Assembly (NCBI RefSeq): GCF_003018255.1
Contig: NZ_CP027440.1
Strand: one strand, 5' to 3'
Source of the DNA: Escherichia coli
Lineage (GTDB): Bacteria > Pseudomonadota > Gammaproteobacteria > Enterobacterales > Enterobacteriaceae
Length of the DNA: 64,000 bases
Positions 7,734 to 64,000 of the stretch are shown here, piece after piece. Each line of letters starts with the position of its first letter. The stretch's first letter is position 1. The translations under genes and the position numbers were made by a program. The notes under the pieces are model-generated. The model did no database searches, was not told the origin of the DNA, and worked only from the letters and a program-made list of their open reading frames with translations.

Positions 7734-8792
7734 ATGCTGGAACTGAATTTTTCCCAGACGTTGGGCAACCATTGCCTGACCATTAATGAAACGCTGCCCG
7801 CCAATGGCATCACTGCTATCTTTGGCGTCTCCGGTGCCGGAAAAACTTCGCTGATTAACGCCATCAGTGGACTGACGCGCCCGCAAAAAGGGCGGATTGT
7901 CCTCAATGGGCGGGTACTAAATGATGCCGAAAAAGGTATCTGCCTGACGCCGGAAAAGCGTCGCGTTGGCTATGTTTTTCAGGATGCGCGGCTGTTCCCG
8001 CATTACAAAGTGCGTGGCAATCTGCGCTACGGCATGGCGAAAAGTATGGTCGATCAGTTCGATAAGCTGGTGGCGCTTTTAGGCATTGAACCGTTGCTTG
8101 ACCGTTTACCAGGCAGCCTGTCCGGAGGTGAAAAACAGCGCGTGGCGATTGGTCGGGCTTTGCTGACAGCACCGGAATTGCTGTTGCTGGATGAACCGCT
8201 GGCGTCACTGGATATTCCGCGTAAACGCGAACTGTTGCCTTATCTGCAACGGCTGACACGGGAAATCAACATTCCGATGTTGTATGTCAGCCATTCGCTG
8301 GATGAGATCCTCCATCTGGCAGACAGAGTGATGGTACTGGAAAACGGTCAGGTGAAAGCCTTTGGCGCGCTGGAGGAAGTGTGGGGCAGTAGCGTGATGA
8401 ATCCGTGGCTGCCGAAAGAGCAACAAAGTAGCATTCTGAAAGTGACGGTGCTTGAGCATCATCCGCATTACGCGATGACCGCGCTGGCGCTGGGCGATCA
8501 GCATTTGTGGGTCAATAAGCTGGACGAACCGCTGCAAGCTGCGCTACGCATCCGCATTCAGGCTTCCGATGTCTCGCTGGTTTTACAACCGCCGCAGCAA
8601 ACCAGCATTCGTAACGTATTGCGGGCAAAAGTGGTTAATAGTTATGACGACAACGGCCAGGTGGAAGTGGAGCTGGAAGTCGGCGGTAAAACGCTGTGGG
8701 CGCGTATCAGCCCGTGGGCCAGGGATGAACTGGCGATCAAACCTGGCCTGTGGCTGTATGCGCAAATTAAAAGTGTGTCGATAACCGCCTGA
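7734..8792 (+). CDS. modC: molybdate ABC transporter ATP-binding protein
   Basis: 352-aa ORF with Walker [18 protein letters not shown] signature and a C-terminal Mop-like domain. Confidence 0.95.
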
Positions 8793-58639: not shown

Positions 58640-59317
<678 letters not shown>

Positions 59318-61246: not shown

Positions 61247-62830
61247 TTAAGGTTTCGGGTCGAAAATATCGGTTCCGAGATGGTTGTAATCTACCTTCTG
61301 TAACTGGAAGTTGGTGATGTATATCGGCCCGGCTTTCTTCTCAGATATAAACGGGTATTTGATATTTATTTCCTTCGCTTTAATTCCCGTCCACTGGGAG
61401 AAAAAGCCTAAGAAGTCATTGGCAGAGCGGCGGGCTTTAATCACCCGATGCGCTTTATCGTCGCTCGAAATGACCATAAAAGGCACCTGGAAATTTTGCT
61501 GATACTTATCATCATGGGCAAGGTATTGCACGTCTTTGCCACGCTCTTTAAAGGCCAGACCGTGGTCAGAAAAGTAAACCAGCGAGAAGCTACTGCCGCT
61601 GTTGCGTAACTGATCGTACAGCTTACGCAGTAAATCGTCTGTTTGCGTCATGGTATAGAGATAGCACGACGTTTCTTTCGATTGCACAAAGGTTTCGTAT
61701 TTGCCTTGTGTCCGGTCGCAGGCCTGCGGATGTGAGCCCATCAGATGTAAAACAATCAGCTGCGGTTGCGAGTGCTCTTGCGCCAGCACTTGAGCGGTCA
61801 TATCCAGTAACGCTTCGTCTTTCGTGTTTTTATCTGCTTCAAAATTACCTTCTTTCAGGAAGTACACTTCATCTGCACGTTTGGCGATGCTGGCGATGGC
61901 GGTATCGTATTCGCCGATTTGGCCCTGGTTGGAAAACCACCAGGTCTGGAAGCCCGCGCGATTTGCCAGGGTGACAAAGTTATCCTGAAACTGTGGTTTG
62001 CCATCGACAACGCGATTGAGCGTTAAGCCAAGCGATTTCTGCGTGGAGCCACTGGCGGCAATGTAGTCAGCAAATATCAAACCGTTAACGCTGCTGGCAA
62101 ACGGGGTATTGTCCCAGTGACCGCCAAAGGCACCGAGGGCATCGCGACGCGCGCTTTCTCCGATCACCACCACATAGGTCTGATACTTCGGCTTAACGGC
62201 AGTGACCGTCCAGGTATCTTTCATTCCGGACAGTTTTGCCATCCGTTCTTGCTCTTCAATCACCTCGTTATTATTGACGATGACATCCTTAGCAAAACGA
62301 AATACCGGATAGCCAGTATCTTTCAGTTTAAATACGCCACCCCAGGCCAGGTTTTGCACGGGAGCAACAAAAAATGTCGCCACACTGAATACCAGACACA
62401 GGCTGTCGAAGGTATTCCAGCGCGCTTTTTCACTCTCTTTTTTCCGCCTGATTGCTATTACGCCGAGCGCAAAAATAAATAAGCCGACCAGGTAGCTGTA
62501 CCACGGAAAAATCGTCAGGATTTCGGTCGACTCTTCCATATTGGTGGAGTGCAATGCCAGCAATGTATTGAAATTAGGTGCGCCGTAGGCCTGAGCAAAA
62601 GGGAAATAACAAGCCGCCACCAGCGAACTGACACCGACCAGAACTTTTTGTACGCGAGGCAATGTTCGCCATAGCAAAAGCAAAATAGCCGTAAACGCAG
62701 CGGTGTAGAGCAAACTGAAGGGATAACCTAAGCCGAGGTTAATTAATAGCGACTGTAAAAAGTAGAACGCAGTCCACGGGCTAAATACCCGGCTACGGGT
62801 AACAAGCGATTCTTTGAGGGTTAAATTCAT
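61247..62830 (-). CDS. opgE: phosphoethanolamine transferase (osmoregulated periplasmic glucan modification)
   Basis: 527-aa ORF with N-terminal TM segments and sulfatase-like domain. Confidence 0.9.
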   Translation of the reverse strand: MNLTLKESLVTRSRVFSPWTAFYFLQSLLINLGLGYPFSLLYTAAFTAILLLLWRTLPRVQKVLVGVSSLVAACYFPFAQAYGAPNFNTLLALHSTNMEESTEILTIFPWYSYLVGLFIFALGVIAIRRKKESEKARWNTFDSLCLVFSVATFFVAPVQNLAWGGVFKLKDTGYPVFRFAKDVIVNNNEVIEEQERMAKLSGMKDTWTVTAVKPKYQTYVVVIGESARRDALGAFGGHWDNTPFASSVNGLIFADYIAASGSTQKSLGLTLNRVVDGKPQFQDNFVTLANRAGFQTWWFSNQGQIGEYDTAIASIAKRADEVYFLKEGNFEADKNTKDEALLDMTAQVLAQEHSQPQLIVLHLMGSHPQACDRTQGKYETFVQSKETSCYLYTMTQTDDLLRKLYDQLRNSGSSFSLVYFSDHGLAFKERGKDVQYLAHDDKYQQNFQVPFMVISSDDKAHRVIKARRSANDFLGFFSQWTGIKAKEINIKYPFISEKKAGPIYITNFQLQKVDYNHLGTDIFDPKP

Positions 62831-63101
62831 ATGCCACTATCGTAACAAACGCCATGTGCTTACCCTGGCGTCAAGGGTCAATACCTGCAAGAGTGCGTGG
62901 AGAGGGGAAAGGGGTCCGCATCCGCGAGCCGCAATATACGCAGGGCTGCAAGAAGATAGAGCGAGCCGCCGTTCAGGTCAACTACTGACGAACAAATCTT
63001 TTGCGAAGGGGATTGCAAATCCGACAAAAAGTGGGGTTTTTCAGACCAAAACGCGTTATGCCTGCATAAAAGCAGGAGTGAAGCGGCGTACCGCGACGCC
63101 G

Positions 63102-63230
63102 CTATTTATCTGAAGGTTTATCTTGCTGCGGTTTGTTGTTGACCATATCGCACAACATAGAGAGCAGCATTAACCGTACTTTAAAGGGAGAATGACTAAA
63201 CACGCGCATACACCTCTTGAACTCATTCAT
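63102..63230 (-). CDS. mntS: small protein MntS (manganese homeostasis)
   Basis: Hand-translated 42-codon minus-strand ORF MNEFKRCMRVFSHSPFKVRLMLLSMLCDMVNNKPQQDKPSDK, below the ORF-track floor; MntR-type operators lie upstream. Confidence 0.85.
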   Translation of the reverse strand: MNEFKRCMRVFSHSPFKVRLMLLSMLCDMVNNKPQQDKPSDK

Positions 63231-63288
63231 AAGACCTCCTGACTTGCTAATCCCGTCGATCCTTGAGGGATGATTGCATTACATACAG

Positions 63289-63322
63289 ATATAGCACAGG
63301 CTATATTATATAGCTATTGCTA
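63289..63322. promoter_or_regulatory. MntR operator(s) in the mntS promoter
   Basis: atatagcacaggctatat is an ATAGC-centred palindrome, followed by a second partial copy tatatagctattgcta. Confidence 0.65.
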
Positions 63323-63415
63323 AAACGTTAATTTTTTGTACCTTCGCAACTCTGGTTTACAATGTGCGCACGAAATGAGAACGCTATGTATGCGTCACCA
63401 TAATGAGGAAGCACA

Positions 63416-63883
63416 ATGAGTCGTCGCGCAGGTACGCCAACAGCAAAAAAAGTGACGCAGTTAGTGAACGTGGAAGAGCACGTTGAAGGGTTCCGCCAGG
63501 TCAGAGAGGCGCATCGGCGCGAGCTGATTGATGATTACGTTGAGCTGATTTCTGACTTGATCAGGGAAGTGGGGGAAGCTCGTCAGGTAGACATGGCTGC
63601 TCGTTTGGGAGTTTCGCAACCGACGGTGGCTAAAATGCTTAAGCGACTGGCAACCATGGGGCTGATTGAAATGATCCCCTGGCGTGGCGTGTTTTTAACG
63701 GCAGAAGGAGAGAAACTGGCGCAGGAAAGCCGCGAGCGACATCAGATAGTCGAAAATTTCTTGTTGGTGTTGGGCGTCAGTCCGGAAATCGCCCGTCGCG
63801 ACGCGGAAGGCATGGAGCACCATGTTAGTGAAGAGACGCTGGATGCCTTTCGTTTGTTTACCCAGAAACACGGTGCCAAATGA
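63416..63883 (+). CDS. mntR: manganese-responsive transcriptional regulator MntR (DtxR family)
   Basis: 155-aa [51 protein letters not shown]. Confidence 0.95.
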
Positions 63884-64000
63884 GCCTGCCTTTTTTACGC
63901 ACGCTGCAAGGCGATCGTTTTTTTCAGTTATTAATTCTTGTTGGCATCGGATTAAGTTTTTTCGTTCCCTTTGCACCGAAATCCTGGCCTGCTGCTATCG
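63880..64000 (+). CDS. ybiR: putative anion transporter YbiR, 5' partial (runs off window end)
   Basis: ATG at 63880 overlaps the mntR stop (ATGA); reads [40 protein letters not shown]. Confidence 0.8.

What the first reader, a model, noticed from the sequence alone, without database searches (positions are those of the whole stretch)
63102..63322. mntS small protein with MntR palindromes upstream of mntR
A 42-codon minus-strand ORF lies downstream of an ATAGC-centred palindrome pair and immediately upstream of mntR on the opposite strand, matching the known manganese homeostasis arrangement. It is missed by the ORF track, and the overlapping 99-aa plus-strand ORF 62814..63113 is spurious.
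Basis: partly seen in the sequence, partly recalled or inferred. Interest (0 to 1): 0.3.

Follow-up and report, generated by a model that had tools for sequence, protein, structure and literature searches.

The report
Known E. coli mntS gene and operators

Summary
The observation and the interpretation both hold. The window is E. coli chromosome. The minus-strand ORF 63102..63230 encodes 42 aa, scores 96 bits against the NCBIfam MntS equivalog (cut-off 36), and is annotated mntS in the listed E. coli genomes; the region is present in 5421 of 5426. Its promoter carries a perfect 18-bp palindrome, ATATAGC-N4-GCTATAT (63289-63306), and one base further a second, weaker box (63308-63325). mntR starts at 63416 on the other strand. 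A matrix built only from the K-12 mntH and mntP operators ranks box 1 first in the 64-kb window. Box 2 is not significant by score alone. In 77 other Enterobacteriaceae species the ORF is intact (ATG start, 41-44 aa, third-codon-position variation dominant). Both boxes keep their register in all of them. The 99-aa plus-strand ORF is open only in this strain; K-12 and all 77 relatives have stops or frameshifts. Mechanism, from the literature: Mn-MntR represses mntS, and MntS binds and inhibits the exporter MntP. Novelty: already known. In passing I found an unannotated, highly conserved promoter and leader upstream of opgE, with a mini-uORF and alternative hairpins, between mntS and opgE.

The parts
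63102..63230 (-). mntS coding sequence (42 codons plus TAG stop at 63102-63104)
   Evidence: NF033226, 96 bits against cut-off 36; annotated mntS. Intact in 77 relatives. Codon-position entropy 0.43/0.21/0.80.
63236..63241 (-). Shine-Dalgarno AGGAGG, 5 nt before the mntS ATG
   Evidence: Read from the sequence. These columns are at least 97% conserved in 77 sequences.
63297..63297 (-). Transcription start of mntS/rybA (5' end of the rybA feature in K-12, 853064)
   Evidence: K-12 annotation mapped with an offset of 789767. Not measured here.
63305..63310 (-). -10 hexamer TATAAT of the mntS promoter, lying between and overlapping the two MntR boxes
   Evidence: Read from the sequence. It ends 8 nt upstream of the annotated start. 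Columns are conserved. The -35 is weak (AATTAA/TTAACG region, 63326-63333).
63289..63306 (.). MntR box 1, ATATAGCACAGGCTATAT, a perfect palindrome covering -9 to +9
   Evidence: Top hit of a matrix trained on mntH and mntP. Half-sites are identical in 70 of 78 sequences; 8 have G at position 17 (ATGT), and the 4-bp spacer varies in 5.
63308..63325 (.). MntR box 2, ATATAGCTATTGCTAAAA; degenerate right half; covers -28 to -11
   Evidence: Weak by score alone (9.2 bits). GC-N4-GCTA is invariant in 78 of 78; the TATA before it holds in 75-78 of 78. It always starts 1 nt after box 1.
63082..63103 (-). Terminator hairpin AGCGGCGU-CGCGGU-ACGCCGCU, starting inside the stop codon; main 3' end at 63078
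   Evidence: nearly invariant; followed by UUCAUUUUU in most genera and by UUCACUCC in Escherichia. Term-seq 3' end at K-12 852845 (Adams et al. 2021, suppl. file 1) gives a 220-nt RNA.
63049..63076 (-). Second small hairpin (CCUGC/GCAGG, 63061-63076) and a second mapped 3' end at 63049
   Evidence: Read from the sequence. Term-seq 3' end at K-12 852816. Poorly conserved outside Escherichia.
62958..63297 (-). Longest annotated RybA transcript (340 nt), which contains mntS
   Evidence: K-12 ncRNA feature b4416, 852725..853064. Folding energy is not unusual (z = 0.08). No Rfam family.
63416..63883 (+). mntR, the Mn-sensing DtxR-family regulator, transcribed divergently
   Evidence: NF008273, 269 bits against cut-off 153. 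Pfam Fe_dep_repress and Fe_dep_repr_C. Annotated mntR.
63336..63363 (+). Predicted mntR promoter (-35 TTGTAC 63336-63341, -10 TACAAT 63358-63363); an inference only
   Evidence: Two conserved blocks flank a variable spacer. Kept intact in L040 despite a roughly 250-bp insertion upstream, and in L015.
62814..63113 (+). 99-aa ORF; spurious, not part of the system
   Evidence: No family match. Not annotated. TGA stop in K-12 at 62900. Interrupted in 77 of 77 relatives.

Best explanation
This is the E. coli mntS (rybA) locus and its MntR operators. When cytoplasmic Mn2+ is low, MntR is unmetallated and off the DNA. A sigma-70 promoter with a perfect -10 (TATAAT, 63310->63305) then fires from 63297 and makes a transcript of about 220 nt. 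That transcript is translated from a strong AGGAGG site into the 42-residue MntS. MntS binds and inhibits the Mn exporter MntP, so Mn is retained. When Mn2+ rises, Mn-MntR dimers occupy two adjacent 18-bp boxes that together cover -28 to +9. They occlude the -10 element and the start site, and mntS is shut off. Shown here: the identity of the ORF and of MntR; the operator motif and its match to other MntR targets; conservation of the frame, the ribosome-binding site, both boxes and the terminator; and the geometry relative to the annotated start. Taken from the literature: repression by Mn-MntR, MntS binding to MntP, and the origin of MntS from a SitA signal peptide. Inferred: occupancy of both boxes and promoter occlusion as the repression mode.
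For: Identity. The window differs from K-12 at only 5 bases in 62700-63420. None lies in the boxes or the promoter, and the one inside mntS is synonymous. Operators: the same A[T/C]ATAGC-N4-GCTAT[A/G]T motif occurs once upstream of K-12 mntH and twice upstream of mntP. A matrix built from those sites ranks box 1 first in the window. Conservation: 80 loci from different Enterobacteriaceae species were fetched through MntR. mntS is intact, with an ATG start and 41-44 aa, in 77. Two of the remaining three lack upstream sequence, and in one the gene is replaced by foreign DNA. Codon-position entropy is 0.43/0.21/0.80. Box 1's half-sites are identical in 70 of 78 sequences, and the G-C bases of box 2's core are invariant in 78 of 78 in a fixed register. 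Transcript ends: K-12 rybA feature and Term-seq 3' ends 4 nt after the hairpin. Function: Martin et al. 2015, PMC4361602; Wright et al. 2023, bioRxiv 10.1101/2023.06.02.543501; RegulonDB curation 'MntR | mntS | repressor | manganese treatment', PMC4207228; PmntS-egfp reporter repressed by Mn only when MntR is present, PMC9806134.
Against: Nothing contradicts it. Four caveats remain. Box 2 alone is not distinguishable from chance by score, and part of its conservation could reflect promoter function, because it abuts the -10. I could not read Waters et al. 2011, the primary paper with the mapped start and operator analysis, so the start site rests on the K-12 annotation. The -35 element is poor. 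No binding or expression was measured here.
Confidence: 0.97

Rival explanations
1. The transcript (RybA) works mainly or additionally as a regulatory RNA, and the 42-codon frame is secondary.
For: K-12 annotates a 340-nt ncRNA, rybA, over the locus. Gerstle et al. 2012, cited, reported Hfq-independent effects of RybA on aroF and aroL under peroxide stress. Several longer isoforms exist, from 205 to about 400 nt (Martin et al. 2015). Parts of the 3' region are conserved.
Against: The substitution pattern in the ORF is that of a protein under purifying selection, and length changes are in whole codons. Overproduction phenotypes were attributed to the protein and were unchanged in an hfq mutant (PMC4361602). 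There is no Rfam family. The 340-nt RNA folds no better than shuffled sequence (z = 0.08). The conserved 3' blocks look like the promoter and leader of the next gene, opgE, rather than a small-RNA body.
Confidence: 0.15
2. The two MntR boxes serve mainly to autoregulate the divergent mntR gene rather than mntS.
For: The boxes lie in the shared 185-bp intergenic region. Box 2 ends 10 bp before the predicted mntR -35. In Citrobacter sp. R56 (L015), box 2 and half of box 1 remain next to mntR although mntS is gone.
Against: The boxes overlap the mntS -10 and start site, not the predicted mntR core promoter. Their distance to the mntS start codon is nearly constant (56-66 nt, 36 nt in one species with a short leader). 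In Leclercia (L040) a roughly 250-bp insertion separates them from the mntR promoter and leaves them attached to mntS. The literature lists mntS, not mntR, as the repressed target.
Confidence: 0.1
3. The 99-aa plus-strand ORF 62814..63113 is a real gene, and the small minus-strand ORF is incidental.
For: It is the longest ORF in the spacer in this strain. The underlying DNA is conserved enough to give tblastn hits in relatives.
Against: Those hits carry in-frame stops and frameshifts. The ORF is open in 1 of 78 sequences. K-12 has TGA where the window has TGG, a single SNP at 62900. It has no family match and a TTG start. It is not annotated in the listed E. coli genomes. The DNA conservation is explained by a promoter and leader on the other strand.
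Confidence: 0.01

Closest known systems
E. coli K-12 mntS / rybA (b4705 / b4416), divergent from mntR (b0817)
   Same: Same locus. The MntS protein is identical. Operators, promoter, ribosome-binding site and terminator are identical. Neighbours are the same: rhtA, yliM, ompX, opgE, mntS, mntR, ybiR, ldtB.
   Different: There are five single-base differences in 62700-63420. One (62900, A->G) removes a stop and creates the spurious 99-aa ORF. One is a synonymous change in mntS.
MntR operators of E. coli mntH and mntP (and dps)
   Same: The same 18-bp inverted repeat with an ATAGC core and a 4-bp spacer. mntH: ACATAGCCTTTGCTATGT. mntP: ATTTAGCCAAAGCTATGT and ACATAGCTTAGGCTATAT. dps: GTATAGCACCAGCTATGT, at window 59191-59208.
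   Different: The mntS promoter has two abutting boxes 19 bp apart that overlap the -10 and the start site, which fits repression. The mntP boxes are 40 bp apart, lie several hundred bp upstream of the coding sequence, and are reported to activate (literature).
Signal peptide of MntR-linked SitA proteins (Rahnella, Sodalis, Yersinia)
   Same: According to Wright et al., MntS is homologous to these 40-45-residue signal peptides, shares the PF motif, and inherited its linkage to mntR.
   Different: MntS has lost the AXA cleavage motif and the periplasmic binding domain, and it is less hydrophobic. I did not re-test this homology here.

Membership tests
MntS small protein (NCBIfam NF033226, equivalog) | Sequence match above the curated cut-off | tested here: met
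   96 bits against a cut-off of 36; residues 1-39 match profile positions 1-40 of 41.
MntS small protein (NCBIfam NF033226, equivalog) | Short ORF of about 42 codons kept intact with a start codon and ribosome-binding site across Enterobacteriaceae | tested here: met
   ATG start and 41-44 aa in 77 of 77 loci that hold the region. AGGAGG columns are conserved. Third-position variation dominates.
MntS small protein (NCBIfam NF033226, equivalog) | Divergent neighbour of mntR | tested here: met
   A 180-191 bp intergenic region in 75 of 77 relatives and 185 bp in the window; the two exceptions are 162 bp (L039) and 432 bp (L040).
MntS small protein (NCBIfam NF033226, equivalog) | Binds and inhibits the exporter MntP and raises cellular Mn | not testable with these tools
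   Literature only: PMC4361602 and bioRxiv 10.1101/2023.06.02.543501.
E. coli-type MntR operator | Inverted repeat with ATAGC half-site cores separated by 4 bp | tested here: met
   Box 1 is a perfect 7-4-7 repeat. Box 2 has a perfect left half and 5 of 7 in the right half.
E. coli-type MntR operator | Matches a matrix built from independent MntR targets | tested here: met
   Box 1 scores 22.5 bits, ranks first in 64 kb, and exceeds all 200 shuffles.
E. coli-type MntR operator | Second box also scores as an operator on its own | tested here: inconclusive
   9.2 bits, rank 5, below the mean best score of shuffled windows (11.7). Its G-C core bases and its register are nonetheless invariant in 78 of 78 sequences.
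E. coli-type MntR operator | Placed so that binding blocks RNA polymerase | tested here: met
   The boxes span -28 to +9 of the annotated start at 63297 and flank or overlap the TATAAT. The start site comes from annotation and was not measured here.
E. coli-type MntR operator | Mn-dependent binding of MntR and repression | not testable with these tools
   Literature: a reporter repressed by Mn only when MntR is present (PMC9806134) and RegulonDB curation (PMC4207228).
MntR (DtxR family, NCBIfam NF008273) | Full-length match above the cut-off, with both DtxR-type domains | tested here: met
   269 bits against a cut-off of 153. PF01325 and PF02742 both match.
Base-pairing small RNA (RybA) | Curated RNA family or unusually stable conserved structure | tested here: not met
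   No Rfam match at E <= 1. Folding z-score 0.08. Only the terminator hairpin is conserved.

The most novel reading that the evidence does not exclude
The 270-bp spacer downstream of mntS is not idle 3' UTR. It holds an unannotated, highly conserved promoter and a leader of about 116 nt for the co-directional gene opgE. The leader has two mutually exclusive hairpins, an invariant mini-uORF and a Rho-dependent termination region. The long RybA isoforms, which read through the weakened Escherichia terminator, run into this leader. MntR-controlled transcription could therefore modulate opgE, which adds phosphoethanolamine to periplasmic glucans, in response to manganese.
Probability: 0.08. Interest if true: 0.4.

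Novelty: already known. Interest (0 to 1): 0.05.

Why it matters
For the scan, it matters that a sequence-only reader found a 42-codon gene and its operators, and correctly rejected a longer overlapping ORF. The locus itself adds nothing new. MntS, RybA, MntR and their regulation have been described since 2001-2011, and the MntS mechanism (inhibition of MntP) was published in 2023-24. The comparative data here are confirmatory: both operator boxes and the reading frame are kept in 77 other species, and there are natural insertion and deletion variants. The only lead with some potential novelty is the conserved opgE promoter and leader next door.

Tried and rejected
- **Rfam:** a permissive scan of 62000-64000 found nothing, so there is no curated RNA family for RybA or the opgE leader.
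- **Folding:** neither the 340-nt RybA nor the opgE leader folds better than shuffles. RNAalifold on the spacer returned only weak structures.
- **Primary paper:** Waters et al. 2011, which has the mapped start and operator analysis, is not held in the library. I used the K-12 annotation, later papers and Term-seq supplements instead.
- **99-aa ORF:** tested as a gene and rejected.
- **Promoter scan:** it did not report the mntS promoter because the -35 is too weak for its rule. The -10 was read by eye against the annotated start.
- **Searches not run:** I did not run a large protein-database search for MntS homologues or re-test the SitA signal-peptide homology. The identity was already settled and the cost was not justified.
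- **Leader copies:** a search for further copies of the opgE leader in E. coli genomes found a median of one copy per genome (highest 2) and no annotation in the listed records.

Full report
**What is in the sequence.** A minus-strand ORF runs from an ATG at 63230 to a TAG at 63104-63102. It encodes MNEFKRCMRVFSHSPFKVRLMLLSMLCDMVNNKPQQDKPSDK, 42 aa. AGGAGG lies 5 nt upstream of the ATG. Further upstream, on the same strand, there is a perfect TATAAT (63310->63305). Two ATAGC-cored inverted repeats sit here. Box 1 is 63289-63306, ATATAGCACAGGCTATAT, a perfect 7-4-7 palindrome. Box 2 is 63308-63325, ATATAGCTATTGCTAAAA, with a degenerate right half. A 155-aa plus-strand gene starts at 63416. The finding's coordinates are correct, except that box 2 runs 3 nt past its end. 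The 99-aa plus-strand ORF 62814..63113 also exists.

**Identity.**
- The stretch 62831-63415 is 100% identical to E. coli NZ_AP045067.1. It is found, at 95% identity or more, in 5421 of 5426 complete E. coli genomes.
- mntS is the only annotated feature under the match in every listed record.
- The 42-aa product scores 96 bits against the NCBIfam equivalog 'small_MntS' (cut-off 36). The 155-aa product scores 269 bits against the MntR equivalog (cut-off 153).
- K-12 annotates mntS (b4705), and around it the ncRNA rybA (b4416, 852725..853064). With the offset of 789767, this puts the transcription start at window 63297 and the longest RNA end at 62958.
- The window differs from K-12 at five bases in 62700-63420. 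None is in the operators or the promoter, and the one inside mntS is synonymous.

**Operator test.**
- The pattern ATATAGC-N4-GCTATAT, with up to 3 mismatches, finds one site upstream of K-12 mntH and two upstream of mntP. In the window it finds box 1, box 2 and a site 47-64 bp upstream of dps.
- I built a symmetric matrix from the mntH and mntP sites only. Box 1 is the best hit in the 64-kb window at 22.5 bits; the maximum over 200 shuffled windows was 22.07.
- The dps site ranks third at 14.5 bits. Box 2 ranks fifth at 9.2 bits, which is not significant on its own.

**Relatives.**
- I used MntR as the anchor and fetched 80 loci from different species of Enterobacteriaceae. They include Escherichia, Citrobacter, Salmonella, Enterobacter, Klebsiella, Raoultella, Kluyvera, Kosakonia, Leclercia and Franconibacter.
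- Two loci lack upstream sequence. In one (Citrobacter sp. R56, L015) AT-rich foreign DNA with an HNH-like ORF replaces the mntS side, and the junction lies inside box 1.
- In the other 77, mntS is intact with an ATG start and 41-44 aa. The first 30 residues are strongly conserved and the C-terminal tail is variable.
- Column entropy by codon position is 0.43, 0.21 and 0.80. Length changes occur in whole codons.
- Box 1's half-sites are identical in 70 of 78 sequences; the other 8 have ATGT for ATAT. Box 2 always begins one base after box 1. Its GC-N4-GCTA bases are invariant, and the TATA before them holds in 75-78 of 78.
Neither is met.

**The 99-aa ORF.**
- It has no NCBIfam or Pfam match.
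- In K-12 its codon 29 is TGA; the window has TGG through a single SNP at 62900.
- In all 77 relatives the frame carries stops or shifts, and it is open in 1 of 78 sequences.
- The tblastn similarity it produces reflects conserved non-coding DNA on the other strand (see 'Noticed in passing' below).

**Transcript anatomy.**
- A hairpin (AGCGGCGU/ACGCCGCU, 63103->63082) starts inside the stop codon and is nearly invariant. In most genera it is followed by UUCAUUUUU. In Escherichia it is followed by UUCACUCC, a weaker tail.
- Term-seq data for K-12 place 3' ends at 852845 (window 63078, 4 nt after the hairpin) and at 852816 (window 63049) (Adams et al. 2021, supplementary file 1). These give RNAs of 220 and 249 nt.
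- Those lengths are in line with the '205-nt' RybA and the longer isoforms described by Martin et al. 2015.
- The whole 340-nt RNA is not unusually structured (z = 0.08) and matches no Rfam family.

**Mechanism.**
- The geometry is shown here. The two boxes cover -28 to +9 of the mntS promoter, so bound MntR would occlude the -10 element and the start site.
- That MntR with Mn represses mntS comes from the literature: PMC9806134, PMC4207228 and PMC4361602.
- So do the findings that MntS raises cellular Mn by binding and inhibiting the exporter MntP, and that it derives from a SitA signal peptide (bioRxiv 10.1101/2023.06.02.543501).
- Occupancy of both boxes is inferred.
- In Leclercia (L040) a roughly 250-bp insertion separates the boxes from the mntR promoter but leaves them on the mntS promoter. 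This argues that the boxes serve mntS rather than mntR autoregulation.

**Noticed in passing: a conserved opgE promoter and leader.**
- mntS and the next gene, opgE (61247..62830), are co-directional. They are separated by 247-300 nt in all 77 relatives.
- The spacer is more conserved than much of the mntS coding sequence. TTGACC (62981->62976) and TATCTT (62958->62953) are almost fully conserved, with only the final base of the -35 varying, around a variable 17-nt spacer. That is the signature of a promoter.
- The following leader contains the near-invariant TTGACCCTTGACGCCAGGGTRAGCACATGGCGTTTT (62883->62845). It can form two mutually exclusive hairpins. One of them has a single covarying pair, A-U to C-G, in 15 sequences, probably from few events.
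- An invariant ATG 22-28 nt before the opgE start opens a mini-ORF, MAF(S/L)(R/Q), of 3-5 codons in 52 of the 73 sequences scored.
- Adams et al. report a Rho termination region peaking 37 nt into opgE, with Rho score 6.2 and p = 5e-42 (supplementary file 2).
- Nothing is annotated there in the listed records, and it is present at a median of one copy per genome (highest 2). The folding energy is unremarkable.
- This looks like an undescribed regulatory leader. It is not part of the finding and remains a lead only.

**Verdict.** The feature is already known, so interest is low.

Noticed in passing
window 62831-63020 (minus strand), between mntS and opgE: An unannotated, very highly conserved non-coding block. 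It contains a putative opgE promoter (TTGACC 62981->62976, 17-nt variable spacer, TATCTT 62958->62953) and an upstream inverted repeat TTTGC-N10-GCAAA (63019->63000). It also holds a leader of about 116 nt with the near-invariant motif TTGACCCTTGACGCCAGGGTRAGCACATGGCGTTTT (62883->62845). That motif can form two mutually exclusive hairpins (62878->62862, or 62872->62848 followed by a U-run). An invariant ATG starts a 3-5-codon mini-uORF, MAF(S/L)(R/Q), just before the opgE start. There is no Rfam hit and no unusual folding energy. Published data show a Rho termination region peaking at K-12 852560 (window 62793). This is a candidate new cis-regulatory leader.
   Followed up: partly
window 59191-59208: An MntR-type box, GTATAGCACCAGCTATGT, lies 47-64 bp upstream of the dps start codon (dps = 58641..59144, minus strand). 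It is the third-best matrix hit in the window. It is consistent with the MntR repression of dps curated in RegulonDB.
   Followed up: partly
L015 (Citrobacter sp. R56, NZ_CP069159.1), about 1800-2420: mntS and opgE are missing next to mntR. AT-rich foreign DNA encoding an HNH-like ORF abuts the locus, with the junction inside MntR box 1. The right half of box 1, box 2 and the mntR promoter are retained.
   Followed up: partly
L040 (Leclercia adecarboxylata NCTC13032), intergenic region 2069-2500: A roughly 250-bp GC-rich insertion with internal repeats (GCGCTGGCC...GGCGAGGCC, like a REP/ERIC element) sits between MntR box 2 and the mntR promoter. It uncouples the boxes from mntR but not from mntS.
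   Followed up: no
window 63082-63103 and relatives (alignment A1, columns 36-75): In most genera the mntS terminator hairpin is followed by a U-rich tail (UUCAUUUUU). In Escherichia the tail has decayed to UUCACUCC. This may explain the several read-through RybA isoforms reported for E. coli.
   Followed up: partly
window 63206 (K-12 852973): Published Term-seq data list an abundant 3' end only 24 nt into the mntS coding sequence. Its origin (processing, pausing or premature termination) is unknown.
   Followed up: no
window 7955-7978: The second-best hit of the MntR matrix is AAAGCGTCGCGTTGGCTATGTTTT (15.2 bits). Only the right half-site is good, so it is probably chance. Its context was not examined.
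   Followed up: no
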